A stretch of 63,874 bases of DNA, the filler included, from Kipferlia bialata (lineage: Eukaryota): the NCBI GenBank assembly GCA_003568945.1. It is 6 parts of 6 records of this genome, joined end to end, with 100 filler letters (N's around TTAATTAATTAA, not from the genome) between each part and the next. Parts side by side here need not be neighbours in the genome. Positions count along the whole stretch, not along the records: positions 53,326 to 63,874 come from BDIP01001408.1; 5 more parts are not named here. One strand, written 5' to 3'. The position numbers and the translations under genes are program-made. The number at the start of each line of letters is the position of its first letter. Position 1 is the stretch's first letter. Positions 719-63,390 of the stretch are shown piece by piece. The notes below the pieces were generated by a model. The model worked only from the letters and a program-made list of their open reading frames with translations. It searched no databases and was not told where the DNA came from.

Positions 719-1031
719 GTGATAGACACAGACAGAGAGAGAGAGAGAGGGAGAGAGAGAGTTCCCCTGAATTCCCACTGTGGCAGAAGGCAGCGACCAC
801 CAGTGGACGTACGGGGACAGACGTAGTATGATAATAGAGGTAGATTGATGGTGCATAGGGAGTATATGACCAGCAACGAGATTGATAAGAGCTTTCTGAT
901 TATGTGCGAAAATGACAGATAAGAGGAATGAAAAGATATCCTCAGGTATGACTGTTGACTCCCACAAGAACTGAACTCCCGGCACATGATGATCTCTTTA
1001 CATTCCCTCACTCCCTGTCTCCCTTTGACCA

Positions 1032-9155: not shown

Positions 9156-10390
9156 CTAGGTATACACGCTGCATCCACTCCTGACTGCAGCACGGAGCGC
9201 CTTGGCCCATTTGACTCCGATGCTGTTATGGTACAGGTCCAGCTGGGGTGAGGGGCCAGAGAGAGGAGAGGATAGGGGTATCTGGATACTGCAGCTCTTC
9301 CCACGCACCCGCATGAGGGCAAACGTGGAAGGCAGTGCCACAGCGAGTGCCTTGGCCCCGTCGTCTCCGATGCTGTTATTGTTCAGGTACAGCTGGGATG
9401 AGGGGCGAGAGAGAGGACGGGATATGGGAACCTAGGTACTGCAGCACTTCCCACGCACGTATGTGAGGGCAATCGTCGAAGGCAGTGCCACAGCGAGTGC
9501 CTTGGCCCCGTCGTCTCCAATGCTGTTATTGTGCAGGTTCAGCTGGAGTGAGGGGCCAAAGAGATGAGGATAGGGGTATCTGGGTACTGCAGCACTTCCC
9601 ACGCACTGTTGTGAGGGCACTCATGGAAGAAAGTGCCACAGTAAGCGCCTTGGCCCCGTCAGCACCGATAATGTTACTGTTTAGGGTCAGCTGGGGTGAG
9701 GGACCAGATAGAGAAGAGGATAGGGGTATCTGGGTTCTGCAGCACTTCCCACGCACTGTTGTGAGGGCAGTCAGGGAAGGCAGTGTCACAGCGAGTGCCT
9801 TGGCTCCCTCGTCTCCGATACTGTTATTGTACAGGTGCAGCTTGGATGAGGGAGGAGATAGAGGAAAGGATAGGGTATCTGGGTACTGCAGCACTTCCCA
9901 CGCACGTGTGTGAGGGCAGTCAGGGAAGGCAGTGCCACAGCGAGTGCCTTGGCTCCTTCGTCTCCGATGCTGTTATTGTCCAGGTCCAACTGGGTGAGGG
10001 GCGAAAGAGAGGAAAGGAGAGGGTATCTGGGTACTGCAGCACTTCCCACGCACTGTTGTGGACCCATCACGGAGACAGGCCTGCACCTTGGGACCCCATG
10101 GGAACCGACGCAGCTAGAGTCAGAGAAACAGTGGTTAGGGTCAATATATATAAATACCTCTTCCACTTCGTGTGGAATCGAGTTACCATCGTACCTCTGT
10201 TGACAAGACACTGTATTCACTGGTGAGAGTGGCCGGCTTCTGGTCGGAGAGACGTGGGCGACTGGGGTTAGTTTGGGAGAGACAGAGAAGGAGAGTACTA
10301 CGCACCATACCCCATCTTGAGAGCGATGATGTCTCTGTCCGTCTTGGTGCCCTCGATGTCCTCAAGAGTCCTCAAGAGTCCTCTAGAGTC
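9156..10390 (-). CDS. RNI-like LRR protein with six near-identical 84-nt LRR exons (5' end unresolved)
   Basis: Exons 9989-9906, 9840-9757, 9690-9607, 9542-9459, 9392-9309, 9242-9159 plus TAG 9158-9156. Consensus LxLxxNSIGDxGAKALAVALPS. Cap exon LRRFPWGPKVQACLRDGSTT resembles YPWYSRVIHCIKG of the neighbouring LRR gene. Confidence 0.85.
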
Positions 10391-26018: not shown

Positions 26019-26517
26019 TTTCATATATGTATGTATGTGTGTACTATATTCTGACTGCAGATCTATGCCAGAGACTATGTCTCTGTGTACATGTCCCTAA
26101 GTACCCATATTCTCTCTCTCTCTCTATCCATATATTTATATATTAATTTATATATAAATATCATACTGACCCTAGATCTATGCCGGGGACTATGTCTCTC
26201 TCTCTCTCTCTCTCTCTCTGTATATATATATATATATATATATACAAGTCTTACTCCAGATCTATGCCGGGGACTATGTCTCTGTCTACGTGTCCCCCAA
26301 GTACCCCAATGGTGACCCAATATGCAGTGTGATAGACTGGGTAGAGGGTGCTACCAGTGTCAGTGATGATCTAACCCTTGTGGCGCCAACTACTGTGCAG
26401 GTATTGTATATGTATTAATTAATATAGTATAGTATATATACCCTATATAGACTGGGTAGAGGGTGCAACGACAGATACACTCAGTATAGTGGTCCCAACC
26501 ACGGTGCAGGTACAATT

Positions 26518-26549
<32 letters not shown>

Positions 26550-29025
26550 GTATATATAGTATATATAGTATATATATATATATATATATATAGTATATAT
26601 AGTATATATACACTCAGTATAGTGGTCCCTACCACGGTGCAGGTACGCTGTATACTAGAGTATCCTAGTATATACTACTACCCATGTATACTTTAGTGTA
26701 TATTTACTCACGCCACTCTGACCCCAGATATTCACCTCCCTCCGTGTGGGTTTCACTCTGTATACTTGTTCATATGTTATATAGAGTATATACTATCAAG
26801 ATACTATTCCTGTTATCAATTACTCTATACTCACCTCCAGATCTGCACCTCTCTGCGTGTGGGTGTCACCCTGTACTCTGAGGAGTGTACACTCATCACA
26901 GTGGCTGATATAGTGACAGGTATGAGTGTATATATATATAGATAGATAGATGTAGTAGAGAGTATACATACACGTATATATATATATACTCTGTACTCTG
27001 AGGAGTGTACCCTGATATCAGTGGTAGACATAGTGACAGGTATGTACACATGTGTAGTATTCAATTACTAATGTGTCTTACCCCATTGTATATAGATATG
27101 TATGTATCCCTCCTTATTCCAGCTGTCGTGTCCACCTCTAGGTCCGATCTGATCAGCGCAGTCCTGGGGGCAGTTGAACCAGGTGGTGTATATGTATAGG
27201 ATATAGTGTATATATAGTATATACATATATATATAGTATATACATATATATATATATTATATTATATATGATATATATATGCAGAGTGACCTGATCAGTG
27301 CAGTCCTGGGGGCAGTGGATCCAGGTATTATATATGTATGTAGTATGTCTATATAGTGTATAAATATATATACACTGTATATATATATAGATGCTGAGTG
27401 ATCTGATCAGTGCAGTCCTGGGGGCAGTGGATCCAGGGATATCCAAGTACACCCTATATAGAGGCATCTCATTTGCATACATGCCCTTATAGTCGTACTT
27501 CATATATATTTATATATATAATATTTTTATACTACTATATATATAGTATATATATATACTACTATATATATAGTATATATATACTACTATATACTATATA
27601 TACTATGTATACTGTATATACTATATATACTCTATATACTATATATATATTACTATATATATATATATATATATATGTGTATATATATACTATCAGAGAG
27701 TGGCTGGACTCCTATTTGTATGTGTATTGTATCTATCTACCTCTTCTAACTGTCAGAGAGTGAGCTAGACCCCTTATTGGGCTAGACCTGATCCAATGTA
27801 TATATATTTATATGAGTGTATATCTCTCTACCTCTAACTTAACTAGAAACTGAGTTAGACCCTTTGTTGGGCTGGACCTATGCCGGGGATGGCACCTTCC
27901 TGGGGCTAGTGAGACACACGGCATACGGTGTAGTTAGTGATGATCCAACAGTAGTACCTGAGGTATCACACTGTTATTATACACTCTGTGAATTTGATTA
28001 TTCATATGCATACTCTAAGTGTCTGAGGAACGTATGTGTTCTGCAAGCCTGTATACGTGCATGTGTATTATCATCTGACACCAGGTTGAGCTGACTGTTG
28101 GTGTCAGACTGCTGGTTTCGTATACTGTAGCATACTATATATGTTCCACATAGAATTATCACGATTGTACTATNNNNNNNNNNNNNNNNNNNNNNNTGTT
28201 CCACATAGAATTATCACGATTGTACTATGCCTATGGTAACTACACATATTCCTATATAGTTTCTAATGGACAGGTCGAGCTGACTGTGGGTGTCAGACTG
28301 CTGGTTCCGTATACCGTATATGTTCCATGTGTATATACCATGTATGTTGTATTATATATATATATATGATCTGACACCAGGTCGAGCTGACTGTTGGTGT
28401 CAGACTGCTGGGGGAGGGGGAGGTGCTCAGTGAGGACGACGGAGGTACAGCATATATGTGTATATATGGATTGTGTGATATGTATGTATGAAAGAGTACG
28501 TGTATAGTAGATACCTGTGAGAGGGCGTACTCAGTGAGGACGACGGAGCTATATTATGTATCAGTACAGTGTGACATAGTAATGATTGTGATATAGTATA
28601 TACTAATTCTGTATGAAAGAGTACGTGTATCGTAGATACCTGGGAGAGGGTGAGGTGCTCAGTGAGGACGACGGAGGTACATACACAGTGTATATATGTA
28701 TTATGTGATATAGTACATATATATATGGTAAATATGATGATACACAACAGTCAGGACGACGGAGGTACAGTATACATCAAGATAGTGTTATAATTACAAT
28801 GTATCATTACAATACGAATAGTATGTATGGTCTAGTAGTGAGGATGATGGAGGTACATATAGTAATCAGTTGTATAACTACACCTGTGAACCAAGGTTCC
28901 TCTGTCTGTCTCTCTCTCTATATATATGTGTGTATGTATGTATACTACTGTATACTAACCCAATAGGCCTATCCTCCCATGGCACCCCCGAGTTCCATGA
29001 TCTATCTATCTCTCTTCTCTCTCTC

Positions 29026-29067
<42 letters not shown>

Positions 29068-31915
29068 ATGTATACTAACCTCTAGGCCTGTCTTCCCATG
29101 GCACCCCCGAGTTCCATGCTGTGTGGCCTCTCCTTCCCTCTGTGCCATCAGCTGAGACTAGTACATTCAGGTATATATATGTTTATACTTTGTGTATATA
29201 TATAGACTGTCTACATATACAAGCATTTACTAGTGCCAGCAGTGTGGCCTCTCCTGCCCTCTATGCCATCGCCAGAGACTAGTACATTCAGGTATGTATA
29301 TATATTTTTATATATCTATATCTATATATATTGTACACGCATGTACTACTGTGATGTGTGGCCTCTCCTACCCTCTGTGCCATCACCTGAGACCAGTACA
29401 TTTAGGTATATGTATACTTTGTGCGTATGGTGTATGTATAGCAGTATATATAACCCCAGCATAGACATATCCACCCCCATCAATGCCTTCCTGTCCATCT
29501 ATGCAGACAATCATATATATGCAGACATATATAGCATTAACACCAGCATTGATATTGATACCCCCGTTGACCCCTCCACCCCCCTGTCCATCTATGCATG
29601 TCTATATAGTGTATATGTATATATACATGGCACTAACACTAGTATTGATGTCACTACTCCTGTTGACCCCTCCACCCCCCTGTCCATCTATGCATGTCTA
29701 CATATATAGTGTATATGTATTCCTTGCTTTCTTACCCGTAGTATAGACGTATCAACACCCGTAGACCCCTCCACCCCCCTGTCCATCTATGCAGGTGCCA
29801 GTACCATAGATGTGTCCACTGTACTGAGGGACCAGTACAGCAATGTGTGCTCAGTGATGAGTAATAGGCCGCCTCTCATGGATGAGGTATTATTATAGTA
29901 TATATATAGTATATAGTATATCTCCCCTAATGGACGAGGTATTATTGTAGTATATATATACACGTGTATATGAGTACAGCAATGTGTGCTCGGTCGTGAG
30001 TAACAGACCACCCCTGATGGACGAGGTATACATATAGATATATATATATATACGAGGTATATATCTGTGTATTAGTATTAATACATACATACATATATAT
30101 ATATATACATATATGAGTACAGCAATGTGTGCTCGGTCATGAGTACCAGACCTCCGTTGATGGATGAGGTGTGTACTCTCTGCTTGTCTCTCTCTCTAGC
30201 TTCATATATATATACATATACATATACCTCTCATCTTCAGGTAGCTTCTGCCTCCCTCGGCCCCTCTGTGTCTGTATCAACCTATAGATACACCCCATCG
30301 GAGACTGAGGGAGAGAGTGGCACTATAGGGGACACGGCACTGTCCTCCTTAGTATTGAGTTCGGCAGATGCGTTGTCTGATACCAAGGTTAGTTTCACAT
30401 GTATAGTACTTGTACTCTCTATATATCTATCTATATATATATATATCTTGTAGGTATGCGGTATAGTTATACTCGCTATATATACACTCACAGTATTATG
30501 AATGCGTATATAGTATCTAACGAGTCAGGTCCCCACCAGTGTGCTTAACTACTACACCACTGTGGCAACATCAGTATATAGTATATATACATATTATATA
30601 TATATGAGTGTGTGTGTGTATATATACCAACCCCTAGGTCCCGAACAGTGTGCTTGACTACTACACCACTGTGGCAGCTGATAATATGCGTATATTTATA
30701 CATATTGTATATAGTGTATATACTTATTCCTCTATACATTTATACTTTGTTACTTACCCTAGATACCTACGAGTGTGCTTGACTACTACACCACTGTGGC
30801 AGCTGACAATGGGTCACTCACTGTCACGGGGGACCTGGTGCTTAAGGTGAGTAATACCCAATAGTTAGCATCATTGTAATATTATAGGATATATTACATT
30901 ATGTGTCTTGACATTTGACAATGGGTCATTGACAGTGACAGGGGACCTAGTGTTGAAGGTATATGACATATAAGCAGCAATCTCTATATAGCTATCATTG
31001 TTCAAGATACTATGGGCATATATACGACAGCTGACAAAGGCTTTCTCACGGTCGCAGGAGGCCTTTGTAATTGAGTAACGTCATGTGGTGGAATATGCAT
31101 ATGAGTATTTGTAATATGTATGTATGTATAGGTGTTTATATGTGCTATTTCTTACCCTCCAGGCCTATATGAACGCGGAGTCCTTCACCGACGACCTAGA
31201 TGCAGACATATCATCAGACGTCGTGTCTGTCCTGCCAGGCTCAGCAGATACCTCCACAAGCACATTCTATATAGCACAGAGCGGGGTGGCCGGTGCCTAT
31301 ATAGACATATACACGGTGCTACGCGATGGGTACTCTAACGCCTTGCTCTCTGTGACCAGTGAGGTATCCTCTGTGTCGGTGTTGGTAGATGGCGTAGGGG
31401 CTACACCTGTGTCCTCTGAGGCTGTTGACAATGACGACCTGGTGCCGGACAGCAGTGCCACTGTGGTTGTGCATACTATACTGCAGATAGACACAGTTGG
31501 TACCTACAGTGTGTCTGTGACATACGGGGGAGTGGCACTAGGTATTCATACATTGATACTGATACATCGTAGATACACATTCGGCCATACAGTATAGCAA
31601 CTCTCTATACTGCATATGTATACTATATATTTATAATATGTATATACTCACCCGATTTATATAGTAATATATATATACAGTATATTAATTCTCACCCTAG
31701 GTGCTGTTGACATTGACTCTGGTACTGCATGGAACACTGCCGCCTATGTAGATATATATTCTATATATGCTATGTACTATATACATATATACACTCACAC
31801 CAGATGCTGTCGATCTAGATAGTGGCACCCCCTGGACCACTGCCTCTGCCTCCTACGTCGTGTACTCCAGCTCAGTCAATGCCCAGATGTCCACATTCTG
31901 TATAGGGTGTGAATC
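21510..31915 (+). CDS. Large beta-rich, acidic Ser/Thr-rich protein with filamin/Ig-like repeats (partial)
   Basis: Recurrent motifs DIVDIFGNP, VLRDQYSN and VLRDGYSN, plus GTYSVSVTYGG, typical of filamin-type Ig folds. Longest exon ~31163-31541. Confidence 0.6.
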
Positions 31916-32317: not shown

Positions 32318-32679
32318 GGAGATAGCCGATCTCAAGAGGATAGATGCATTCCTAGGCATCTTTGAGATGATTGGAAGGTATGTATTGAGAGTGTGTAGTA
32401 ACTCTAGATATATGTATTACTTAAGATACTTGTATGTGGGTAACCGAATCCCCTAGGGAGAGACTTGATGCCATTCCCAGGCTATATAGTGTGGTGTCTA
32501 TGTCTATATGTGTCTATAGAATCTAACCACTAGGGAGAGACTTGGTGCCATCCAGAGACATATATATATGATACCATACATAATCCATATGGTTATATAT
32601 GTGTGTTTATATACTATGATGCTTGTAATACCCCAGGGAGAGACTTGGTGCCATCCAGAGACACGTATATGTGATAGAG

Positions 32680-32714
<35 letters not shown>

Positions 32715-33399
32715 CCACATATGTATATATGTAGTCTAACCTTAGGGAGAGACTTGGTGCCATCCAGAGACGGTTCAAGATGGCACCGAAGCAACAGCTG
32801 GATCTGCTGGAGGTAAGCCTGTGTGTTAACTGTTCCATGGTCTCTTTATCCTCCCTACCCCGTTCGTACGTCAGTCCTTATTCTGTGTCCCCCCCCCCCC
32901 CCTTCCTCCTCTCTGTCTCTCTCTACGTTAATATTCTAACCCCCCCAGTTTGTGTATGCTGTCATCAGTGTCATCTCTCTGTCTCTCCCCTCTCTCTAGA
33001 AGTATATGTATCCATATATCTATATACCTAGTCTCACCCCCAGTTTGTGTATGCAGTCATCAGTGTCACACACCCAGACCTCAACATGCAGGAGAGGATA
33101 GGTATGAGACGATTTACTCTATAGGATCATATATATATAGTGCATTTAGTGTGTGTTTGACTCTATGCCTGACCAGGAGAGGGAGGGTGTACATCTATCC
33201 TTCAGCTTTCTAGAATGTTGGTATTTACGAAATCATCTACTCCATTCACCCCCAGGTCGTGACAAGCAGGAGATGGTGGCTGTACTCTGTGAGCTGTACC
33301 AGGAGATGGACCCAAGTGAGTGTACTAGTTCGATCTCTCTCTCTCTCTCTTTGTCTCCACCCCTATATATCTTTCCCCCAGCCAATGACCAGGCCGTGA

Positions 33400-33436
<37 letters not shown>

Positions 33437-34936
33437 CCCCCCCTCACCCCCAGCCAATGACCAGGCTGTGACTGCCGAGGACTTCACCTCCCTCATGATT
33501 GACATGACCAGTGTCGAGGACTCACTGGGTATGATAACGGATCGCTTGTGTTCTCTCTCTGTGTGTGTGTGTTTGTTCACATATGTCCCACTCCCTCCCC
33601 CTCTCATCCCCAGACAATGAGAACAGGTTCATCGACCCTGTCAAGCCGATACCCCTACCTGTTGTGTCTGCCGTGACCCCATCCAGTGCCCTGATACATT
33701 ATGTGTCACAGTTGGATGCTGATATGCCAGGTATGCACATGTGTAGGATTGTTGTCATAAATGTACTCTGCAGTCTCTCTAACCCCTCAGCCAGCAGACA
33801 GAAGTCTGAGCAGATTGACTCCATTGCCCCAGACATGACGGCCTTGATACTGCTACCTGCTAACAATGGGAACATATACGTGCTGTCAGGTATTGAGAAC
33901 ATACCCTCCCGTAGTTCTTAGCACTCGTTATGTCAGTATTGTTCCCACCTCACTACATACGCATTCCTCTTTACCCATCTCAAAGAAAGATTGATATGCC
34001 GTTATGTATCCATTTTTATATACTGTATCTCCGTATGTATTCTTACGTCCCAGATGAGTTCAAGCTGAGGCGCACCCTGAGTGGTGGACACACATCAGCC
34101 GTGGCCACAGTGTGCAGGCTGAGGTATTATTGTTAATACCATATTCATAATATAGTACATATGGTGTAATAGTATTATTAGTCTCTATCTCTCTCTCTAA
34201 CCCTCAGAGGTGACAAGACCCCCCGCCCCTCCGATGAGGTCATGAGGACAGTGGCACCTGATGCATCAAGCATCTTTACCCATCAGGATGAAGGTACGAT
34301 AGACTATGAGTATTCACACTCGAGTATCCAGACTGAATATCTCTATCTTACTGTATTCTCTTATTTGTACTCTTCTAATACATCGATATATTATCGTATC
34401 AGAGTTATATATCTATGTGTCTCTCTCTTCTAACCCCCCAGCCAAAGAGTTCTCCCGTGACTGCATCTCTCTATCTCTTACACACTCGTTCCCTTATGTA
34501 TTATATATATATATATATATTCTTACCCCCAGCCAAGGAGTTCTCCCGTGACTGCATAGTGTCCTCAGGCACAGACTCCAGACTCACAATCTGGGAGTGC
34601 GGGATCAGGTACATACGTGTATATATATGTGTGTGTGTGTATTCTCTTTGCGGATCTCTGTGTATTCAGTTTCTACTTGCACCCTATCTCACCTGTCAGG
34701 CAGAGCCAGTATCAGTATCAGTATCAGTATATCCCAATATCCCTATATGTATATATATATTTATACATAGTAGTATCAATATATCTCACCTGTCAGGCAG
34801 AGCCAGAACCCCATGATTGCGTCATTCCCACTCAGTGAGGTATGGATATAGTAGCATATATATATATACACAGATACATTACAATCCTTCACAGCTAGGT
34901 CTTTCTCACCATTTTCTATTTGTCCTTGGTCTTAGA

Positions 34937-34967
<31 letters not shown>

Positions 34968-37615
34968 ATACATAGAGATTAGTAATCATTCATATATATA
35001 TGTGTGTATACTAATCTATAGGTCATCCTCACCATGTCCCCTTGGCATCAGATCTCTCTCTCTCTATATATATATATGTAAATATAATTATGAATTAGAA
35101 TATACTTATATCCTAGGTCATCCTCACCATGTCCCCTGCCCTTGGCCTTAGATATGTCAAGGACGCAGTGAGTCACAGGAATGTGTTCCTAACAGGAGAC
35201 ACAGGTATGGGATATTTACTATATTTGTGTGTATATATTTATAGGTATACATGCTCTTGGCTTACCCTTCAGGCGGATACCTCTCTGGCTATGTGCTGTC
35301 TGAGACTGCCAGACCATATTTGTATTGAACACATATTTATATACGGCTATATAAGTCTAAGTGTATTCTCTATATGTACTTAGCTCACACTCTAGGCGGA
35401 TACCTCTCTGGCTATGCCCTGTCTGAGACTGCCAGACCCATCCAGCTGTTCAGTGTCAAGGCTCACAACACATGGGTATGTGGAGTGTATGTNNNNNNNN
35501 NNNNNNNNNNNNNNNNNNNNNNNNNNNNNNNNNNNNNNNNNNNNNNNNNNNNNNNNNNNNNNNNNNNNNNNNNNNNNTTATAGTACTAGTACCATCCAGC
35601 TGTTCAGTGTCAAGGCTCACAACACATGGGTACGTAGAGTGTATGTATATAGTTAGGTATATGTATGTATAGATATATAGTACTAGTACCATCCAGCTGT
35701 TCAGTGTCAAGGCACACAACACATGGGTATGTACATGTATGCATATATAGCTCACTCTCACACTCTCTATGTCAGATGTATACCCTCACCCCTAGGTCTC
35801 CGTTGTGTACTACATCCCCTCTGTACCATGTGCTCTCTCTCTCTCTCTCTCTCTCCCTCTCTCTTTCTCTCTCTGTCCATATACCTAACTAACCCCCAGG
35901 TCTCTGTGGTGTACTACATCCCCTCTGTGCCATGTGCTGTCACAGGCTCATACGACGGAGAGCTCAAGCGTACGTAGTTGAGTATTTACTATACTGTTCT
36001 TCATACCATTATTGTATTAAACAGTCCCTCCTCTATTTGTAGTTTGTGCGTTCTTATATTGTTATTACCTTCTTTTCACTCCAGTCTGGGACCTGTCCAA
36101 CCTTTCCCATCTCTCTCTCTCTCTCTCTCTGTATATATATGTCTCACCCCAGTGTGGGACCTGTCCAACCTGTCCTGCCATATTTTTCTCTCTCTCTCTC
36201 TCTGTCTCTCTCTCTCACACTTTTTATGTATCCTGACTCCAGTGTGGGACCTGTCCAACCTGTCCTGTCGTGACTCGTATCTCTTTCTCTTTCTCTCTCT
36301 CTCTGTCTCTCTCTCTCTCTCTATTCATATATCTCCTGACTCCAGTCTGGGACCTGTCCAACCTGTCCTGTCGTGACTCCTTCAAGGCACACTCCAAGAG
36401 TATCACGTGCCTGGCATTCAACCAGAGACTCAAGATCATCATATCAGGTATGATGTATTGTATTAGATTTAAGGAATATATATATATATATATAGAGTAT
36501 GTGATATATAGAGTATGTGATATATATTGCTGCCATTCAACCAGAGACTCAAGATCATCATTTCGGGTGAGTTTAAGATACACGAAGTATGTGTATGAAT
36601 ACGGACATATGAATGTGTTTTGGTTTCTCACTCTAGGCTCTGCCGATAGGACTGTCAAGCTGTGGAACACCTTCTCCTTCAATGATCTCTCTCTCTCTCT
36701 CTCTCTCTCTCCAATTAGTCTCTCATTATAGGCTCTGCTGACAGGACTGTCAAGCTGTGGAACCCCTTCTCCTTCAATGGAGAGATCCAGTGTCTCACAT
36801 CACACGATGGGGCACTGACCGGGCTGTTCTGTCCTGCTGACACGTGCCAGTATCAGGTACTATGCATTGTACCATACTATACTTTCACTTTGTGTCCATA
36901 TATGCATACCTCCTACTTATTCTCAGGGCCTCCCTGTGCCTGCCCTGGAGGCACTGGCTGCATCACCCATCACAGATCTGCTGGTCAGGTACATTATGCA
37001 CACAGCAAACAGTGAATACATGATTATAGTGGGTATATATATGTGAAGAGTATTTGTCAAGATTTGTCGTAGCATTACCCATCACAGACCTCCTGGTCAG
37101 GTATATTGTGTACAATTGAACAGAAGTTCATTGATAGTATAGTAATTACATCCACAGTTTACAATTCATAATTAATACTGTTCCTCACCCCCAGCGTAGA
37201 TGCGTCTGGTCTCATCCAGGCCATGTATATACCATTCATACACTGTCACAGTCATTATTACCCATTGCATTCATATACCTATAGTGGTATATATGTCTCA
37301 CCCCCAGTGTGGATGCGTCTGGTCTCATCCATGTGTGGAACCTGCACCACTCGGCATTCCTCATGCAGGTGTATTCATTCGTAAACTGCTACAGATACTG
37401 ATACATACCTATCTATATTTTTTTATATGTATATACACATATATATATATATATCTGTTATATTTACCTATCTATATGTATCTACCCCCCCACTCGGCAT
37501 TCCTCATGCAGGTGATCTCTCTCTCTCTCTCTCTCTCTCTGTCTGTGTGTGTGTGTGTGTGTGTCTAACCCCTAGACCCTCCGCTTCACCCCTGTGGAAT
37601 CCATGCCCTCCCTGC

Positions 37616-37647
<32 letters not shown>

Positions 37648-39005
37648 AACCCCTAGACCCTCCGCTTCACCCCTGTGGAGTCCATGCCGTCCCTCCCTAT
37701 CTTCGATGACCTCAACAGCAGACTGTCCATCCTGAACAGAAACATATACATCTACAACCTGGGGTCAAGGTATGGGCATATATATATGTAATATATATAG
37801 ATAGATAGATATTTTCCCATCACATACTTATTCATTTACTCATGTGCCAGGTTCCGTCTCCCCCGTGCCTCTGACTACACCATCCAGTGCATGGTGTGCC
37901 ACCCAAGGTAAAGATGTATGTATAGAGTATACATATAGAGTATACAGAGCATGTATATATATAGTATATAGTACGAGAGTCTGACTACACCATCCAGTGC
38001 ATGGTGTGCCACCCAAGGTATGATATATATAGATACATAAATATAATATAATGGAAATGAATACTCGCTTTTCTTTCATCTATTCGGTCACTGACCCCAG
38101 GCTCCCCATTCTGTTTGTGTTCAGTGCCAGCAACTACCAAGTGTGGAACATGCTCAGTGGGCGCTGTTCAGAGATCAGAAGGTATATTAGTTGTATATGA
38201 GCTACTACTATATAATATATAGTAGTGGGGTATACTATATAGTATACTCTATTGTATTAGCACTATATCTACCAAGTGTGGAACATGCTCAGTGGCCGAT
38301 GCAGTGAGATCAGAAGGTATGTGTAGAGTATCATGACACACGAAGTATAACTGTCTATGTGTTGTTTGTTGTTGTCGGTTTTGATCAATATTCTCGCCTC
38401 TGGAGACATTCTCAACTTTGACATCTGACTTGCTGTCGTTATAGGTATATTCATTTCTTGTGTATTTCATCAATATCTGACCCTCAGAGACATTCTGAAC
38501 TGTGACATTGTGGCTGCCAATGTGTCACCAAATGGGTCACTATTGACAGTGGTTGGTGAGTGCATGGTGTATATCCTTCATTCTATGAGTATGGCTTAAT
38601 GTGGCATTGCTTTATAGTGATTGTACATATATCCACGGATCACTACTGACAGTGGTGTGCATAATTAGAGTATTATTGATTATCTCATTCAATATTTGCC
38701 TATGGCTCATGTGTTGCGTTCAATAGGGCATATCATCTCATCCGTTAGGCGGTGACGGCTCTTCCAAGGTCATCAGTCTCTCCTCTGTCACAAATGATAT
38801 TTCATTGATTATACATAATATATTCATTAGGCATGTATTGTATATAGTGTGTATCTCACCCCAGGTGGCGATGGCTCCTCCAAGGTCATCAGCCTGTACT
38901 CCGGCAGAGAGATGGGCCACTTCCTGATATGCCCACATGATCAGGAGAAGAGACGGGACAAGAAGAAGCAGGGTGAGGCATATATACACCCATATTCACT
39001 AATAG

Positions 39006-39046
<41 letters not shown>

Positions 39047-39830
39047 CACATGACCAGGAGAAGAGACGGGACAAGAAGAAGCAGGGTAAGACAGAGGAAG
39101 ACACATACGTTGATATATATATGTATATACATGTACATATATGTATGCCCACATGATCAGGAGAAGAGGAGAGACAAGAAGAAGCAGGGTATGCAGAGTA
39201 AGATATATGTGTATATAAATATGTGTATACATGTACATATTTGTATTCCCACACGACCAGGAGAAGAGACGGGACAAGAAGAAGCAGGGTGAGGCGTATT
39301 ATATCATTTTTTCTTGCTTTTTGCGTGTTATCCTCTCTATACTTGTGGTGTCTCTCTCACCCCCAGGTGCCCTTGACGATGATGAGATCAACGATGCCAT
39401 GGGGCGTATATCGAATATGCTCGAGATGAGCGAGAAGTTCTCATTAGGTAAGATACTCCCTGGACGATAATCACAATCTGTATATATCGATTGTGTATAT
39501 ATCTGTATATACCTTAATCCAACATGCTCGAGATGAGCGAGAAGTTCTCCCTGGGTGAGTTGAAATAGTATCTGTATATCATAAACGCCCACCCACAGAC
39601 AACTATATATGTACACCATTTACCCCCAGGTGACAACGAGTCCCTGGTCGATGCTCTCATTCTCCTTCTCCCTCTCTCTCTTTAGTGTGATGTATATCCA
39701 TTACTAACCCCCAGGTGACAACGAGTCCCTTGCCGAGAAGAGGTCCAAGGAGGGGAGGGGGCAGCACAGGGACGAGGGGCAGGTGTCAGAGGTGGGTAAC
39801 AGTGAGTGTAGTTGTGTATATAGTTATATC

Positions 39831-39876
<46 letters not shown>

Positions 39877-40098
39877 ACAAGGGGCAGCACAGGGACGAGG
39901 GGCAGGTGTCGGAGGTGAGGATACCTCTCTCTATATATATATGTTACTTTCCCTCTAGGTCTTCCTCATTTCTACGACCTCTCTAGACCCCTATCTTCCT
40001 CTCTCTCTCTTTCTCCCCCCTTGTCCCGATATGAATATATATGTACATATAATACAATACTGACCCTAGGCCTCCCTCATCTCCTTCATCGCCATGAC

Positions 40099-40130
<32 letters not shown>

Positions 40131-53389: not shown

Positions 53390-54496
53390 GTGGGCCATGT
53401 GCTGCCACAAGGACAGCCGCAGACAGGTGAGACATATGAATACAGCATATGCTGTCTACATTGGCATTTCACCAGTGTATACGTATGGGTGTACACTTCT
53501 TTTATACCTCCTCTTTCCCAAGGTCCTCCAGGCCCAGTACCCCGTGTACCTCTCTCTCCCTCTCTTTCTCTCTCTCTCTCTTCCAATATACCCCTCACCC
53601 CAGGTCCTTCAGGCCCAGTACCCCGTGTACCTCTTCCCACTCATATCGTCATCCCCAGCAGACAGGGAACTGAGGTATATTAGTATATGACTATATATAT
53701 ATATATACTTGTATTGTATACAGTGTACCTCTTCCCACTCATATCGTCATCCCCAGCGGACAGGGAACTGAGGTGTGTGTGACCAGTGGTCCTCCCTCTC
53801 TATGTCTACACAGCAGTACTCTCTCTCTCTCTTTGTCTCTTGCTACACCCCTCACTCCCAGGCGTCTTCACACTCTCTCTCTCTCTCTCTCCCCCCCCCC
53901 TCCCTTCCTACACCCCTCATTTCCAGGCGTATCTTCATCTCTGCCCTCTCTGTCTTCACAGCCATGGTCTCTCTCTCTCTCTCTCTCTGTATCTTCCTAG
54001 ACCCTCATTCTCAGGCGTATCTTCATCTCTGCCCTCTCTGTCTTCACAGTTTCTGTCTCTCTCTCTCTCTCTCTCTTGCTAGACCCTTATGCCCAGGCGT
54101 ATCTTCATCTCTGCCCTCTCTGTATTCACAGCAATGGTCAAGACAGACGACCCGGTAGTCATCAGATTCTTCGTAAACAGGTAATTATACCATTCAAATA
54201 TTTGAATATACTGAACATAATATAGTTATATCTGTGGATATATGGTCAAGACAGACGACTCGGTCGTGATACGGTTCTTCGTCAATAGGTATTAATGGTG
54301 TTACATATATTAGTATGGATATACTGAACATAATACCTGTGTAGATATGGTCAAGACAGACGACCCAGTAGTCATCAGATTCTTTGTCAACAGGTGTGAT
54401 ATAACGCATAATTATCTCTCTTTCACTCTGCCGTTACCATTCGCTCATTGGGATAGTGGCATCCCTCAATGTACATAGCACACATACCCCCCCCCC

Positions 54497-54538
<42 letters not shown>

Positions 54539-55787
54539 CCTTCTCTTATCATCAGTGAGATTGTAGCCACTGCCCTGAATGTAGTGCTGTCCCCTGACCA
54601 GTTGGGCAGACAACTGGCACTGGGCATCATCAAGCACATGTCCATGCATGAGGTATAGTCATTATTATACACTACATATTACATATATATGCTATATCTC
54701 TGTGTGCGTCTCTCTCTCTCTCTAGACCCTTATACTAGGATGGCATCAGGCACATCTGCTCCACCCCAGAGAGAGTGGGGGCTATGCTATCTGCACTGAG
54801 CAGGGTAGTAGAGATGGTTAACAGGTACATAGAGCACTATATATTTGTATATGCGTTATATGTGTATATTGCATGTATTTGTATAAGTGAGTGGGGGCCA
54901 TGCTATCAGCACTAAGTAGGGTAGTGGAAATGGTCAATAGGTTAGTGCATGTATATATATGTGTGTGTACATATGTATGAGTGTGTACACTGTATTTACC
55001 TCCAGAGAGGTCGAGAGGCAGGGTGACGACATGTCTGAGCTCTGCTGAATAGTATTCACTATATACTGTTGTATATCACTTATTATATCTCTATATATAC
55101 CCTTCTAACCCCTTCAGGGAGGTCGAGAGGCAGGGTGACGACATGTCTGAGAGGAGTGTCAAGAGGATGTCCAGCATAGTGTCAGACACACTGCAGGTGT
55201 GTATAGTATACATAGTATGTAAAGTATAAACATATGTATATGTATATAGTGTCAGACACACTCCTGGTGTGCACCCTCTCATCTATGCATGTTTCATCTG
55301 TTGCATTCCATCATTATCCATATATATACCCATACTTATCCCTAGATCATGGCCCGTGTTGTGACCCACCTCAAGGGCAGGGTCAGCAAGGACATTGTGC
55401 CGGAGAGGCTGCAGGGGCTGCTTAAGTCAAGTATGTACAATATTGATATATATTATATATTATTATATATATATATATATATGTGTGTGTGTATGTGTAT
55501 GTCTTACCCCATTGTGCCAGAGAGGCTGCAGGGGCTGCTCAAGTCAAGTGCGTAATTTACAAGTCTCATTCTCTCTCTCTCCTCTCTAATATCTCATTCC
55601 TAGGCTTTGTGCTCCAGACCGTGTCCCTGTCTCCCATACCTCTCTCTCTCTCTCTCTCTCTAATTGTCTTTATTATACTATTCAAACCTTACCCTAAGGC
55701 TTTGTGATCCAGACCGTGTCCCTGTCCCCCAAGAACAAGGCCGCTGTCACCACCCTATCCTCACTGGGAGCAGGGCAGGCATCTTAG
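53390..55787 (+). CDS. CNOT9: CCR4-NOT subunit CNOT9/Rcd1/Caf40 (5' partial)
   Basis: Spliced peptide VLQAQYPVYLFPLI...RIFISALSVFTAMVKTDDPVVIRFFVNSEIVATALNVV...DGIRHICSTPERVGAMLSAL matches Rcd1 motifs (IPLFLYPFL; ALVKTDEQEVINFLL; GLAYICQTYER). TAG at 55785-55787. Confidence 0.8.
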
Positions 55788-56557: not shown

Positions 56558-59500
56558 CTAGTTCCTCCTCCTACCGTTCCGTCTCCCTCTACGGCAGATG
56601 TCCGGCTGTGAAGCAGGCTTGGGACCAGCCCTGTGCCACTTCTGCTCCTTCCGTCTCTTCTGATCCTGATAGTACCTCATCTTCTCCTCTTCGTTCTCAA
56701 ACAACACCCCGAAAGAGTACTGTCCCCTTCTGTAGCCTTGGCGGATGAAGAAGGGTTCGTCGAGAATCTTCGTCTTGTCTGCCTCACTCTTCAAGTTGAC
56801 AATGACCTTGGAGTCCTTGTAGGAGAAGTATACGCTCTTGGGCTTAACCCCACACACGTTTCCCATCTTTTTGCGTATAGCCTCCTCCGTGAGACCCATA
56901 CCTGAACGCCGCTCGACACTGGGTCTTGGATAACCGACGTATCTGACCCTGCGTTAGTATCAATTGCGCGTCACAACAGAGGATTTGCAATTATCTAGGA
57001 CATGTACCCACCTGTATCCCATTCTGATCAGGTCCTCTCTCATATCCTTGGCATTCGATATGTCACGAGAAAAGACAAGCGAGGTCTTGGGGATGTCCTA
57101 CACGTTAGACAGGTATGCTGGAGTATATAGTGAGACTCATTATATATCATTATAATAATGAGTGACGTGGGAAAGAGGTTGTGAGCAGGAAGGAAGAGGG
57201 GAATCACGCGGGAAACAGCATGGAATGGTCTGTGGTATATCACCTGGACTCTGACATACTATGATATTCTAACAAATAATATGAATCATAGTCTATGATA
57301 TACTGTGATATGTTATATCACCTGTACTCTGGTTGGGGCCCCACTAAGTATATATATAGTATATATATATAGTATATAGTGTGTATATTACACTATATAA
57401 ATATCACCTGGACTGTGGTTGGGGGCCCACTAAGTANNNNNNNNNNNNNNNNNNNNNNNNNNNNNNNNNNNNNNNNNNNNNNNNNNNNNNNNNNNNNNNG
57501 TATATATATAGTATATAGTAAACTATATATATATTATGTATATTACACTATATATATCACCTGGACTGTGGTTGGGGGCCCATCCACTAGGTAGGTGTAG
57601 GGGTTAGGCAGGCCAGTCAGGTCACAGAGCTCAAGGGTCTGAGGGTTGGGCCTTGGGGTAAGTACTAATCCAAGGAGGTACACATACATGAGACTAAGTA
57701 CAGCATTCTCTTGTACCTGAATACACAAGGATCCCTGTCGGGGTCTACTCTGTAGTCCGGCACTGGGTATGCTAGGGGAGCCTGTCGGTGAGACACGATA
57801 CTCTAGAGTAACGTATTCACCTCATATCCATAACGAAACTATCAATTACTGGTGAGAAAATGTATTGGTGAGACATTAGGACAGTAAAGTATAGAGTAGA
57901 ATCAATAACCCTCATTCCATTTACACATATCAAGATATTACAATGTGTAGGAAGTGTACCTGGTTCTCAGCAGAATCATTGGAGCAGGGTACAAAGTATA
58001 GCCTTCCGGTATCAGCTGTCCCCTGGTTGTCTATGTCCGAATGTCCCTGGCCATAAGTGCAACAAACCACTTGAGCGTTAAGTGAAATAGTTGATGGAGT
58101 GGATTCAACCTGCTCAGTGAGTCTGGCAAAGCTCTCGCGGAGCTCAGTGTCGTCCAGGGTGAGGAAGGTGTAACCCTGATCCCTGTTGACACCCTCTGTC
58201 TCACTCTCATCTCCACCACACGTCATATCCCCAGCCTCATTGCCAGGTTGAGGAGCGGGCTCAAGTACCACGTCCATAGCAAGGCCCGTGAATACAACGG
58301 GAGAGCCCAGAGACTCAGAGGTAGCGCCAAACTCTCTCCCCTTTCCCCTGTCGCTATCCAGCTCCACTTGGCCTTCTGACACACATACCCCTGCTGGCAC
58401 AGTGGCCTCTGCAAAGTAGTGCATGTGTGCAGCCCACCAGTGTGCCTGAGAGTGAGTGATGACACACTAATTGACTATATGAAATGAGTGTATGAGTATA
58501 CCAGTCATATATCATGTGGGCGGCCACCAGAGTGTCTGGGAGTGAGTGAATATTGATTTTAAAGATAGTACTTCAAGTAAAGAGACTCTGTGGAGCCCAA
58601 ATGAAGGATACAACGATATGGTATGATATTTCGACAGTAATATACTGAGTATGCGTTTGTAATTGGACTTGCCTCGCCAATGACCGGAATAGCACCACTT
58701 GTGATGTCTGTGAGTAGACCGGTAGAGAGTGGCGAACCCTGCTCTCCTGCGCATTTCTCGTGCTGGGAGTTAATATGTTCATCAGTAAATACGTTAACAT
58801 GTTTAGAGATCAGTACTCAGGCTAAACTGTATAATTATAGAATAGTTAACAGGATTTGTTATTTAAATAATGTGAATACTATATATACATATGTATATAT
58901 GTATATATATATATATATACAATGGCTACCTTAGGAATGTACACAAAGTGCTCGTTGGGAGTGGTGACGATTGTGGGCCTGTCGTAAAAAGGTGTATTGG
59001 ATTTGCATCACAACATGACTATAGGAGATAGATTAGACACATACCAGTCGTGAGTGAGTACAGTTGTCTTCAGCTGGGGCTGTCTACTGAGCGTGTGTCT
59101 GAGGGGGTCTACCTCTGCCCTCCTGTGGTGGAAGCAGGATTCAATACTGCCCTGATTCGTGAGAATATACAATAGAATTATAAATATTTACATAACTTTT
59201 GTATATTCATGTATATACATGGCATTACCGAGAGACACACACACATATATATACCAACAAGAATATAGTACCGGGGCTGTAACAGGCTCCATGTACGTAG
59301 AGTGAGTTGAGAGATTGGGGCAAATACACTGTAACATCTGAATGACCTAGCCTTCATAATAGAGTAGTATTGAGTACCTGGTCAAACTGGGTGGGATTGT
59401 AGTCTCTCTCTTCCTTGGCACTGCTGGCATCGTAGATACCACTGATACCAGCCACTCTCAGGTGCCTATCACCCAGGACAAAGTCTACTGCCCCAACACG

Positions 59501-60357
59501 GCCTGGGTGAGATATCAATAGAATAGTATCATTACACTGTAAGTAATTATACTAATTTGAGTAGTTCATGAAAATCTACTGCCCCAACGCGGCCTAGGTG
59601 AGAAGAGATATGATAAATAGGGGTAAAGGAGGGACATGATCACGTACCCATGTAGTACACGTTGTGTGCAATCTCATTGTATTATACTATTCACTATGCA
59701 TTACATACTATGTAACATAGCCCTACCCATGTAGTACACGTTGTGTGCAATGTACCCCCCGTATGGCAGCTCCTCTAAGTAGAGAGAGGCCTCGTGGTTG
59801 CCACCCACGTAGATGACGGGGACAGGCATAACGAGAGTACCTGGGTGTTAGTGGATGTGCATACATACTAAATGTATACAAATATATGAATATGTACATA
59901 TAGAGAGAGAGAGATGACAGGGACAGGCATGACTATGGAACCTGGGTGTTAGTGGATGTGCATACATACTAAATTTATACAAATATATGAATATGTACAT
60001 ATAGAGAGAGAGATGACAGAGACAGGCATGACTATGGAACCTGGGTGTTAGTGGATGTGCATATACACTAAATTTATACAAATATATGAATATGTACATA
60101 TAGAGAGAGAGATGACAGGGACAGGCATGACTAGGGTACCTGGGAGTTAGTAGATGCCTATATATAAAGAGAGAGAGAGAGTTCCGATATCAGATCACAG
60201 GTACAGGCATGACTATGGAACCTGACTGTTAGTGGATATATATATGTACATCTATATATATATATATTAGCATTGAGAGAGAGAGAGATAAATATAAGGG
60301 ATGATAAATGACGGGGACAGTCATGACTAGTACCTGGGAGTCAGTATACATCTGATA

Positions 60358-60393
<36 letters not shown>

Positions 60394-61037
60394 TTATATA
60401 TTTATAGAGAGAGAGGGAGAGATGTTGACGACGATAAATGTCAGGGTTAGGCAGGAGTACCTGGGAGTTGGCAGAGTATTTACATATATATACATATATA
60501 CATATATGGAGAGAGGGAGAGAGTTCTTCAGATGACGGACCGTCACCATGGCGGTACATATATATGACAAGGAAACCTGGAAGATAGGTTCGGAGAGAGA
60601 GAGTTGGAGTAATGTATACGGTATATACATGCACTGTCTATACAGTATATATACCCCGGTTAAGACCTGAGAAGGAAACCTATAAGTTACTAGATGACCA
60701 CATATATTGAAATAGAGAGACATGGAGAAGACTAGATAGTATCTTACTATTGGTATGTAAGTAGATGAGGAGAGAGTAAGATGTACCTATACCGCATATT
60801 GTTAATGTAGGAGGTTGTCTTACCATTCAAGAGGCCTTGGAAGGAGTTCATGTTCTTTCTGAGCTCATCAGAGAACTGTGTGAGCGCCAATACTGTTATA
60901 TATGTGATGTACATATATATACTACTAAGTACATATATAACATGTAGTAGTGTAAACATAGTAAATGGCCAGCGCACAGGATAAAAATGTCACTCACCCT
61001 CGGAGGCATGCGTCCGAACTGGATACCGAACTTATCC
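56558..61037 (-). CDS. DBR1: Lariat debranching enzyme DBR1 with in-frame C-terminal RRM/xRRM-like extension; N-terminal motifs missing
   Basis: MNSFQGLLNG|TLVMPVPVIYVGGNHEASLYLEELPYGGYIAHNVYYMG; RVAGISGIY; VLTHDW; QGSP; HWWAAHMH; C-terminal PNPQTLELC. All are DBR1 hallmark motifs, in order. Confidence 0.9.
59841..60140. repeat. ~100-bp near-identical tandem repeat x3 (intronic spacer + acceptor + DBR1 exon-head echo)
   Basis: Unit ctgggtgttagtggatgtgcatacatactaaa...gatgacagggacaggcatgactatggaac read three times. Confidence 0.9.
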
Positions 61038-61218
61038 CTTTGAGTAAGACAGATAATGGGAAAATGAATAGGAGAGAGAGAGGAGGACTTATAGTGCAAG
61101 ACAGATAAGTTGGCGGTGGAAAGGGGGAGGGGGGGGGGGGGGGGGGAAACCCCCCCCGGGGGGGGAAAGGGAGAGAGAGAGAGAGAGAGAGAGAGAAGGA
61201 GCAGAAGAAGGTACTCAC

Positions 61219-63249
61219 CATCTGCTCTGGTGGCACTGGCCTTGTGTCGTTGTATGCCGTGGGGATGGGGGTGGGGATGACGCTCTCATCTATGAGGGCC
61301 CACCTAGGGTCAAATAGAGTGGTATATGGAATTGCATCAACACTTTACACGTTTAGCATAACATACTCAAATTTCCCATGCACTCTCTTTGTACATGTCT
61401 TCTTGGAGTCGAGCATTATCTATCTCTATGTATATTCAAATCAGTCCCTGTGAATGAATACTATACCATTCCACTCTATATCACACTACAAACCTCTGTA
61501 CTCTCTTTGCACATGTCTTCTTGGAGTCGAGCATGATCTTGTACACCCTCTTGTTCTGGTGGTCGGACACACCGCCTGTGTAAGTATAACACAATGAATA
61601 TATACTGAATATACACAGGCAAGGTATACATATTTACACATCTATATATATGTATAACAAATTGAATTTATGAAATAATAGAGAGAGAGAGAGAGAGAGA
61701 CTTTACCTGTTGCCCACACTTCAAACTCCTTGTACATTTCTCTCTCTCTCTGATACATAAATATATATGTGTGTGAATATATATACATATCGTACCTGTA
61801 GCCCACACTTCAAACTCCTTGTACAGGCCCCATATGTCATCCAGGGCAAGGTGGGGGTACTGCAGAGCACTTACATAGGCCTAAGGTGAGGTTTCTATAC
61901 AATAGTACATAGTGTGTGAGAGAGAGAGAGAGAGAGAGATGTTGGGGTACTGAAGAGCACTGGCATATGTCTATATAGGGTAAGGCCTCTATATAGTAGT
62001 ACATATGTGTATGTATACACACAATCACTTACGTTTCTGACCCTCAGTGCACCCTTCTGGACATCCAGAGAGGGCTCACCCTCCTCCTCCTGGGATGAGT
62101 GAGGGATATGCGAGACAAGAATAGTGAATACTGAGATACGGGGGATAAGGCTATGCATCTACATACACACACCTTCAGGTTGAGGATACTGCGGACCAGG
62201 GTGACATACTCAGTCCAGAGGGGACCTGAGGGTAAGAGAGAAAGACGCACCCACACATATAAATATACATTGAGAGAGAGAGAGAGAGGACCTTACTCAG
62301 CCCAGAGGGGGCTTGCAGAAAAAGAAGGAGAGAGGATGGGAAGAGAGAGAGAGAGCCCACTGATAATACTAGTTAGATATCCATCTATATATAGTAAATG
62401 TACCTGAATACAGAGAATATCCGACTCTAGCCAATTCAAAGCCGTATGTATCATCGTATACCAGTCTCTCCAATATATATATATATATGTATCCAATCTA
62501 CCTGAGTACAGGAAGTATCCGACTCTAGCCAATACAAACTCGTATGCCTCAATAATTATAAATCAATATACATGAATACACTGTACCTGAATACAAAGAG
62601 TATCCCACTCTCGCTAGCACAAACTCGTATGCATCAATATATACACAACGTATGTACCTGAATAGAGTGAGTACCCTACTCTTGCTAGTACAAACTCGTA
62701 TGCATCGATGACACTGTTCAGCAGCAGGGCCTTGCCAGGGAGGCGGAAGAAGGCACGGCACTCGTCAGAGCCTAATATGAGAACATGTATAAAGAGAGAG
62801 AGAGAGAGAGAGAGATGAAGGTAGGCGGAAGAAGGTGCGGCACGCATCAGGGCCATACTCTTTTGAGACAGTTGGGTACCTGGCTTTCCTGGGACTCCAT
62901 TGGTGATGAGGATGAACCTGATGTACTCCTGGGGTGACTAAAGGGGTGTAGAGGGAGAGAGAGACAGAGAGTAGATGGAAGAACCTGATGTATTCCTGGG
63001 GTGAATAAAGGGTGTAGAGGGGGAGAGAGAAATGAGGGAGCGAAAGAGAGAGTGACATGGTGTGAACATAGAGAATAGATAGGGGGCGCAATATCACACA
63101 TACATGGCTCCAATACCGAGCATTCAGGATATATATGTGCATATACATATTTATAGGTGTATATATATACATATACCTTGCTGATGTCGAGGCTGAGCAG
63201 CTTGGGCATGCAGCACCTGATACCACTGTATACACAACAGTAATACTAT

Positions 63250-63283
<34 letters not shown>

Positions 63284-63390
63284 CAGGTGTGTATATACTA
63301 GTATGAATACCTTGCTGATGTCGAGGCTGAGCAGCTTGGGCATGCAGCACCTGAGGACATCGCGGGCAGAGGGAATGTCGAAGGTGCCTA
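61219..63390 (-). CDS. CSTF3: CstF-77/Rna14/Suppressor-of-forked-like HAT repeat protein, N-terminal portion
   Basis: CMPKLLSLDISK|EYIRFI; IDAYEFVLARVGYSLYSG|PLWTEYV; AYVSALQYPHLALDDIWGLYKEFE match the CstF-77 HAT-N motifs in order. Confidence 0.65.

What the first reader, a model, noticed from the sequence alone, without database searches (positions are those of the whole stretch)
54739..54942. Independent replicate of synonymous echo in CNOT9
Seen: tail of exon 54739-54824 (VGAMLSALSRVVEMVN|GT) vs echo 54889-54942 has eight substitutions, all synonymous (gct>gcc, tct>tca, ctg>cta, agc>agt, gta>gtg, gag>gaa, gtt>gtc, aac>aat). Echo 54242-54287 of the exon two upstream (54097-54180) has six synonymous codon changes, including aga>cgg, and one replacement (P>S). 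The reading frame is fixed here by Rcd1 homology, so the pattern is not a frame-guessing artefact.
Basis: seen in the sequence. Interest (0 to 1): 0.8.

Follow-up and report, generated by a model that had tools for sequence, protein, structure and literature searches.

The report
Intron echoes archive other alleles
In this free-living protist most introns of several genes hold short copies of the neighbouring exon's end that differ from it mostly at silent positions; these are likely pieces copied from other working versions (alleles) of the same gene, so a single genome would carry a record of very high population diversity and of recombination.

Summary
Confirmed, and far wider than one gene. 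The CNOT9-like exon tail 54775-54824 and its intronic copy 54891-54940 differ at 8 of 50 bases, all silent. The window holds 164 such echoes, in 73 of 88 introns of seven gene models and in 0 of 33 introns of two others. Copies of exon starts (with AG) lie upstream, copies of exon ends (with GT) downstream, in units of about 105 bases. Exon versus echo: dS 0.44, dN 0.055, omega 0.13; plain duplication and decay gives 0.5 or more. A DNA contig spans one exon plus two echoes at normal depth; the main transcript contig skips them. Exon, echo 1 and echo 2 are equally far apart and mosaic; amino-acid differences are a mix of random AT-biased decay and conservative changes. Best reading (0.62): old junction duplications, repeatedly overwritten by recombination from diverged working alleles, implying silent diversity near 0.25. 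No other allele was found, so this source is inferred. Rival: low-level coding use (0.14). An identical protein is named as Kipferlia bialata.

The parts
54739..54824 (+). working exon of CNOT9/Rcd1-like gene; its tail 54775-54824 is echoed
   Evidence: (contig of X2, 0 differences)
54891..54942 (+). 3' echo: copy of exon tail plus GT, 8 silent differences in 50 bases
54825..54890 (+). AT-rich spacer between true donor and echo; no branch point or AG consensus at its end
54097..54180 (+). working exon with two 5' and two 3' echoes
54242..54290 (+). 3' echo 1 of exon 54097 (6 silent, 1 P>S), with GT
   Evidence: spanned by DNA contig X1 record 8
54347..54395 (+). 3' echo 2 of exon 54097 (3 silent), with GT; same left end as echo 1
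53927..53969 (+). 5' echo of exon 54097 (preceded by AG; 2 silent)
54015..54049 (+). 5' echo of exon 54097 (preceded by AG; 1 silent)
53604..53674 (+). working exon; 5' echo at 53523-53553, 3' echo at 53716-53772
54556..54652 (+). working exon with no echo of its own
55118..55196 (+). exon; 5' echo 55006-55039, 3' echo 55246-55266
   Evidence: its start is the loose end of the X2 contig
55346..55430 (+). predicted exon; 3' echo 55510-55547
55699..55787 (+). predicted last exon; 5' echo 55604-55636
10785..21089 (+). gene model gA, 22 exons, 43 echoes, 21 of 21 introns
21519..31906 (+). gene model gB, 19 exons, 50 echoes, 17 of 18 introns
32319..42338 (+). WD40-repeat gene model, 33 exons, 40 echoes, 22 of 32 introns
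59045..63387 (-). two minus-strand gene models (m1, m2), 18 echoes, 7 of 9 introns
42773..49456 (.). two echo-free control gene models (0 of 33 introns)

Best explanation
The echoes are genomic head-to-tail copies of one exon end plus most of the adjoining intron, skipped by the main transcript, whose exon-like part is likely overwritten again and again by recombination from diverged working copies of the same exon on other chromosomes (alleles). Steps. (1) Shown: units of about 105 bases hold one splice site only; exon starts are copied upstream and exon ends downstream. Inferred: these are the only local duplications a gene with 70-base introns survives, because one whole exon stays intact. 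(2) Shown: copies in an array share their junction and have related spacers, so an array began once and then grew. (3) Inferred: during double-strand-break repair or meiosis the echo pairs with the homologue's working exon, the only well-conserved sequence nearby, and is converted or exchanged; it then carries that allele's silent variants and a few tolerated replacements. (4) Shown in pattern, inferred in cause: between overwrites the echo gathers random AT-biased mutations. The model needs silent-site diversity near 0.25 among the donors and exchange between chromosomes; the donors may be strains of an outcrossing population or homologues in a hybrid or polyploid ancestor. A mismatch-tolerant, Dmc1-only recombination system is a plausible enabler (from the literature; not tested here).
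For: Omega 0.126 over 1946 codons, bootstrap over 107 arrays 0.10-0.16; 395 of 524 single-base codon differences silent against at most 0.47 expected if only the exon is constrained; same pipeline on neutrally mutated copies gives 0.103 at 0-fold and 0.098 at 4-fold sites, against 0.054 and 0.30 seen. Echo versus echo is also silent-biased (dS 0.45, dN 0.092), and at informative third positions the odd one out is the exon 33, echo 1 35, echo 2 32 times, with 15 three-way differences: equidistant versions, more than two per locus. dS is flat with rank in the array (0.48, 0.45, 0.47) while dN rises (0.045, 0.077, 0.069). 0-fold differences run GC in exon to AT in echo 106 to 36, 4-fold ones 102 to 96. 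The GC>AT replacements are random in BLOSUM score (36 changes, -0.53 against null -0.59) while the other classes are conservative (16, p 0.009; 20, p 0.022); 10 of 12 replacements shared by echoes are conservative. Twenty multi-base silent codon swaps, including Ser AGC/TCA. Tract-like mosaics (184 against 164 +/- 7.5, p 0.006) and shared junctions (55% of 77 pairs within 3 bases against 16%). Toy simulation: four clonal settings give omega 0.55-0.72; conversion from homologues with diversity 0.255 gives 0.286 silent, 0.056 and 0.095 non-silent, near the observed 0.30-0.33, 0.053 and 0.086. DNA contig and transcript contig as. Fornicates lack NHEJ and Rad51A and have two Dmc1 (PMC8516963, passages); crossovers favour exons in a hypervariable fungus (PMC4209137, abstract).
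Against: No donor allele was seen: run X1 shows one version of exon 54097-54180 and no other letters, although the species' genome paper calls it diploid from k-mer peaks (PMC5874029, passage); the strain must be homozygous or nearly so here. The diversity needed exceeds the 0.20 reported for Schizophyllum commune (PMC4576712, abstract). Stops are rarer than plain decay predicts (1 of 119 replaced codons against 6.1, p 0.014). The simulation is a toy (60 haploids, independent sites, lethal selection) with parameters picked to fit; a model of weak selection on used echoes plus conversion in cis could give similar rates and equidistance. The BLOSUM split was made after seeing the polarity and has small classes. 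Triplets in the mosaic test are not independent. The two echoes of gene g0 show no silent bias (omega 1.4, 21 codons). The model does not say why units cluster at 95-118 bases or why the block 42.6-53.3 kb has none. Frames outside CNOT9 and WD40 rest on my own gene models.
Confidence: 0.62

Rival explanations
1. The echoes are themselves used for coding at a low level: an unknown RNA-level jump between the direct repeats, or frequent DNA collapse in some cells, puts echo sequence in place of the exon end, so selection keeps the amino acids.
For: Omega 0.13 and conservative replacements; stop depletion 1 against 6.1; splice dinucleotides mostly kept, AG 72 of 87 and GT 68 of 77; no divergent second allele in X1.
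Against: Main X2 contig uses five pieces without differences and no echo-specific letters. Each echo lacks one splice site; unit lengths fall 49/49/59 in the three frames and only 12 of 157 extensions are in frame and open. AT-biased replacements are unfiltered; 7 of 11 indels shift the frame; branch motif kept in 48 of 87 echoes against 100 of 131 true acceptors. No known spliceosomal route (own knowledge).
Confidence: 0.14
2. Arrays expand, collapse and convert within one clonal lineage, so echo sequence is tested by selection from time to time without any divergent allele.
For: Shared junctions, related spacers and mosaics show turnover; needs no extreme diversity and fits the single version seen in X1.
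Against: All four clonal simulations give omega 0.55 or more and echo-echo omega 0.67 or more, against 0.13 and 0.21. Only point conversion was simulated, not copy-number change.
Confidence: 0.07
3. Assembly artefact: exon pieces of divergent haplotypes or strains were stacked in tandem by the assembler.
For: Unit length near 100 resembles a short-read length; the window has many gaps and a few identical repeats across gaps; echo 54891-54940 is mostly not covered by a listed contig; X1 may be the source of the window and so not independent in reads.
Against: A separately assembled 408-base contig spans exon plus two echoes at the depth of its neighbours; three or four versions per locus; echoes join AT-rich spacer, not the rest of an exon; dropping the 7 echoes cut off by a gap changes nothing (157 echoes, 0.054 and 0.30).
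Confidence: 0.04
4. Plain tandem duplication followed by neutral decay, with selection on the exon only.
For: Explains position, polarity and decay; fits some old echoes and gene g0.
Against: Predicts at most 47% silent differences; 75% seen, p under 1e-39 treating codons as independent; nearest echoes of 45 of 58 informative arrays have a silent majority, 4 the reverse.
Confidence: 0.02

Closest known systems
Human F7 intron 7 37-bp minisatellite spanning the exon-intron boundary (PMC1557585, abstract)
   Same: Tandem copies of an exon end plus donor site; downstream pseudo-donors stay silent while the first is used.
   Different: One locus with donor copies identical in sequence; here 164 copies, both donor and acceptor types, units of about 105 bases, and codon-level conservation with 30% silent divergence.
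Concerted evolution by ectopic gene conversion between duplicates (textbook; recalled)
   Same: Mosaic tracts, equidistant copies, one working copy and non-working recipients.
   Different: Recipients are 20-70-base exon ends inside the gene's own introns; the silent bias needs donors on other chromosomes rather than in cis.
Hypervariable Schizophyllum commune: silent diversity 0.20, crossovers in exons (PMC4576712 and PMC4209137, abstracts)
   Same: Level of allele divergence needed, and exons as the places where diverged homologues pair.
   Different: There measured in many genomes; here inferred from one. The abstracts mention no intronic exon-end copies.
Tandem exon duplication with mutually exclusive splicing; intron gain by AGGT tandem duplication (recalled; PMC4974935 seen as search listing)
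   Same: Local tandem duplication involving splice sites; 102 of 121 exon ends read AG|GT.
   Different: Echoes are never whole exons (at most 80% of the exon), carry one splice site and lie inside existing introns.

Membership tests
Boundary-spanning tandem repeat (F7 IVS7 type) | First unit spans an exon-intron boundary, further units in tandem in the intron | tested here: met
   164 of 165 hits with score 15 or more are anchored with the expected polarity; spacers related within arrays
Boundary-spanning tandem repeat (F7 IVS7 type) | Pseudo splice sites normally silent | tested here: inconclusive
   Main contig of X2 skips them in CNOT9; minor use and other genes not testable with contigs
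Boundary-spanning tandem repeat (F7 IVS7 type) | Copies free of coding constraint (identical or decaying at random) | tested here: not met
   omega 0.13; 75% silent
Mutually exclusive duplicated exons | Each copy has its own acceptor and donor and keeps the frame | tested here: not met
   One splice site per echo; no frame preference
Ectopic gene conversion from alleles | Tract-like mosaic sharing among copies | tested here: met
   p 0.006 within-array permutation
Ectopic gene conversion from alleles | Donor alleles carrying the echo variants exist in working exons | not testable with these tools
   No second allele in X1; two metagenome scans found no relative; no genome held
CNOT9/Rcd1 (PF04078) | Match to the Rcd1 profile above the curated cut-off | tested here: inconclusive
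   2 of 7 single exons hit Rcd1, collinear, at 14 and 11.8 bits against a whole-protein cut-off of 37.7; the spliced protein was not scanned

The most novel reading that the evidence does not exclude
The half-exon echoes are live coding alternatives: an undescribed, splice-site-independent swap between direct repeats (in RNA, or by frequent DNA collapse) lets hundreds of intronic exon ends replace the regular ones, and selection on the protein keeps them. The more likely, still new, reading is that introns store exon ends from other alleles, so one genome reveals record diversity and recombination in a free-living fornicate.
Probability: 0.14. Interest if true: 0.92.

Novelty: new variant of a known kind. 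Interest (0 to 1): 0.72.

Why it matters
If the best reading holds, intronic echoes are a built-in sample of a species' alleles: silent diversity near 0.25 and exchange between chromosomes could be read from one assembly, in a lineage where sex is an open question and where break repair relies on Dmc1 without Rad51A or NHEJ. It gives a sharp test: other isolates should carry the echo letters in their working exons. The arrays also plant intact decoy donors and acceptors about 100 bases from most true ones, in an organism with a reduced spliceosome (87 of 174 proteins, PMC6679479, passages), a natural system for how splice sites are chosen. For annotation, gene finders take echoes for mini-exons (mine did). 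If instead the echoes are translated, it is a new way to build mRNA.

Tried and rejected
No RNA holder on record was listed by the run search; X2 is only guessed to be RNA. Most of echo 54891-54940 and the stretch 53870-54085 had no cover in either run; holes prove nothing. No joint from an exon into an echo was listed in X1 or X2; contigs drop rare forms, so this is no evidence. The joints 53838/53840 to 54703-54710 and 54736 to 54857 sit on simple repeats and were set aside. No whole genome was held. Two metagenome scans (162-residue and 197-residue single-exon queries) found no relative; the protein search found one protein, the identical one. In-frame use of echo splice sites: rejected, 12 of 157. 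Saturation of silent sites: rejected, 0.295 against 0.68 expected. Exon evolving fast against frozen echoes: rejected, silent distance hardly rises with decay (slope 0.5, intercept 0.26 over 80 echoes of 12 or more codons). Absence of an AT excess at degenerate sites (-4 against 31 +/- 17) fits either reading, since both copies mutate there. Silent distance of 5' and 3' arrays of one exon is not correlated (rho 0.21, p 0.23, 34 exons). An in-window control on the 150-base repeats at 9.2-10.1 kb failed because they are frameshifted. Inverted copies: 1 hit, chance level. A weak PT-VENN hit on the last exon, below cut-off, was taken as chance. Literature searches listed no paper describing this pattern; only listings were seen, subscription papers are not held, and the supplements of PMC5874029 and PMC8516963 were not read.

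Full report
1. Observation. The tail of exon 54739-54824 (54775-54824) and the intronic stretch 54891-54940 differ at 8 of 50 bases, all silent, and both end at GT. That has a chance of about 1e-3 even if only the exon is constrained. One AGA>TGA change lies at the ragged left edge if the alignment is extended to 54886. The echo 54242-54288 has six silent changes and one P>S; a second echo, 54347-54393, has three silent changes. The CNOT9 label has weak, collinear Pfam support on 2 of 7 exons. A neighbouring protein is identical to one named as Kipferlia bialata, a free-living fornicate with 124,912 introns (PMC5874029, passages).

2. Are the echoes real DNA, and are they in mRNA? In run X1 one contig of 408 bases covers 54094-54474 with no difference, at depth 400 where neighbours have 376-401; it holds the exon and both echoes. 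No other letters were listed, and the exon bin has that contig's depth alone, so no diverged second copy shows there. X1 may be the window's own source, so it checks the assembly, not the sample. One contig of run X2 (guessed RNA) matches five pieces in a row without differences, with GT..AG joints where listed, and goes on into exon 55118: the main transcript skips the echoes. Most of echo 54891-54940 had no listed cover.

3. The pattern is window-wide. I built gene models with a small self-trained gene finder and curated them by hand (131 exons in ten models; other genes at 1-10.6 kb and 51-52 kb were not included). Frames were fixed before echoes were scored. Aligning each exon to its two flanking introns gave 180 hits of score 13 or more; I kept the 164 with score 15 or more (null rate 0.4% per pair) and anchored at the near exon end, dropping 15 weaker ones and 1 unanchored. 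Upstream hits (87) copy the exon start, 72 with AG; downstream hits (77) copy the exon end, 68 with GT. They form 107 arrays of one to four copies in 73 of 88 introns of seven models and 0 of 33 introns of two others. Units are 105 bases at the median (quartiles 95-118): about 36 of exon and 68 of AT-rich spacer, close to a normal intron of 75. Copies in an array share their junction and have related spacers (66 pairs, p 3e-13).

4. Silent bias. Mismatches by codon position are 140 of 2072, 88 of 2064 and 498 of 2048. Of 1946 codons, 415 differ silently, 192 by a replacement and 5 by a stop. dS is 0.44, dN 0.055, omega 0.126 (0.10-0.16 by bootstrap over arrays); six of seven models give 0.05-0.16 and the smallest, g0, 1.4 on 21 codons. 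If only the exon were constrained, at most 47% of single-base differences would be silent; 395 of 524 are. The pipeline does not make the bias, silent sites are not saturated, and gaps in the assembly do not matter.

5. What the differences say. Echoes differ from each other as much as from the exon (dS 0.45), and the odd one out is exon, echo 1 or echo 2 equally often (33, 35, 32; 15 sites with three states). Sharing comes in tracts (p 0.006). At 0-fold sites differences run from GC in the exon to AT in the echo (106 to 36); at 4-fold sites they are even (102 to 96). The AT-ward replacements are as radical as random ones, the others conservative, and replacements shared by echoes are mostly conservative (10 of 12). 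So an echo looks like a working version of the exon end, about 25% away at silent sites, plus about 5% of unselected decay.

6. Mechanism. Two lines can only diverge at silent sites alone while both are working, and one chromosome has one working copy. The simplest source is therefore other chromosomes. A toy forward simulation (ten settings) gave omega 0.55-0.72 in four clonal settings, 0.43 at low diversity, and 0.11-0.24 in five settings with recombination and diversity 0.23-0.26; one of these came close to all four observed distances. I therefore read the arrays as old junction duplications, the only kind a short-intron gene survives, whose exon part is repeatedly overwritten from diverged alleles and decays in between (0.62). 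Anatomy, silent bias, equidistance, mosaics and decay are shown; donors, diversity and the repair route are inferred. Context: fornicates lack NHEJ and Rad51A and have two Dmc1 paralogues (PMC8516963, passages); Dmc1 stabilises mismatched joints (PMC6719624, abstract); crossovers in a hypervariable fungus favour exons (PMC4209137, abstract).

7. Against it. No donor allele was found. The strain looks homozygous here though described as diploid; selfing nematodes with hyper-divergent haplotypes are an analogy (bioRxiv 10.1101/2020.07.23.218420, search listing only). The diversity needed is above the 0.20 of S. commune (PMC4576712, abstract). Stops are depleted (1 against 6.1), which coding use would explain more directly, though two-way conversion and allele-type replacements also lower the expectation. 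Weak selection on used echoes plus conversion in cis could match the rates; what counts against it is the missing splice site, the lack of frame preference, the unfiltered AT-ward changes and the clean transcript contig (0.14). The narrow unit size and the echo-free block at 42.6-53.3 kb are unexplained.

8. Comparison and novelty. The anatomy works like the human F7 intron 7 minisatellite (PMC1557585, abstract) but fails its trait of identical or freely decaying copies. It is not mutually exclusive exon duplication. It works like ectopic gene conversion; the defining donors could not be tested. Searches listed no description of this pattern, and the passages read from the species' genome paper do not mention it; subscription papers and supplements were not seen. 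Verdict: real, gene-spanning, a new variant of known processes, with a cheap decisive test. Interest 0.72.

Noticed in passing
window 42618-53270: A block between gap linkers with no echo in 33 modelled introns; its introns are richer in GC (0.45 against 0.38) and poorer in dinucleotide repeats (4% against 13%) than those of echo genes.
   Followed up: partly
window 53393-53426: The X2 contig matches only these bases before a GT and continues upstream in sequence absent from the window; likely an identical 3' echo of a CNOT9 exon lost in the gap at 53226-53325.
   Followed up: partly
window 32319-42338: Silent distance to echoes is lower in the WD40 gene (0.157 of degenerate third positions) than in gA, gB and m1 (about 0.29); genes differ at p 3e-6.
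   Followed up: partly
whole window: 102 of 121 modelled exon ends read AG|GT, and true acceptors have a C-Y-N-A-C branch motif close to the AG in 100 of 131 cases.
   Followed up: no
window 9195-10060, minus strand: About six 150-base repeats of a leucine-rich-repeat look (label recalled), with frameshifts between units.
   Followed up: partly
window 920-3030 and 3700-6190: Two similar genes in tandem, by eye sharing several exons; seen, not aligned.
   Followed up: no
window 51033-52122: MPN/JAB domain gene (Pfam PF01398, E 2.6e-14) with a long first exon; identical to P0001.
   Followed up: partly
window 57500-60900, minus strand: Gene with a GNHE motif that recalls the lariat debranching enzyme DBR1 (label recalled; no Pfam hit on single exons); one exon has at least five 5' echoes.
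   Followed up: no
window 10624, 21295, 31960, 42618, 53270: Gaps hold a 12-base TTAA-repeat linker, so pieces on either side may not be neighbours in the genome.
   Followed up: no
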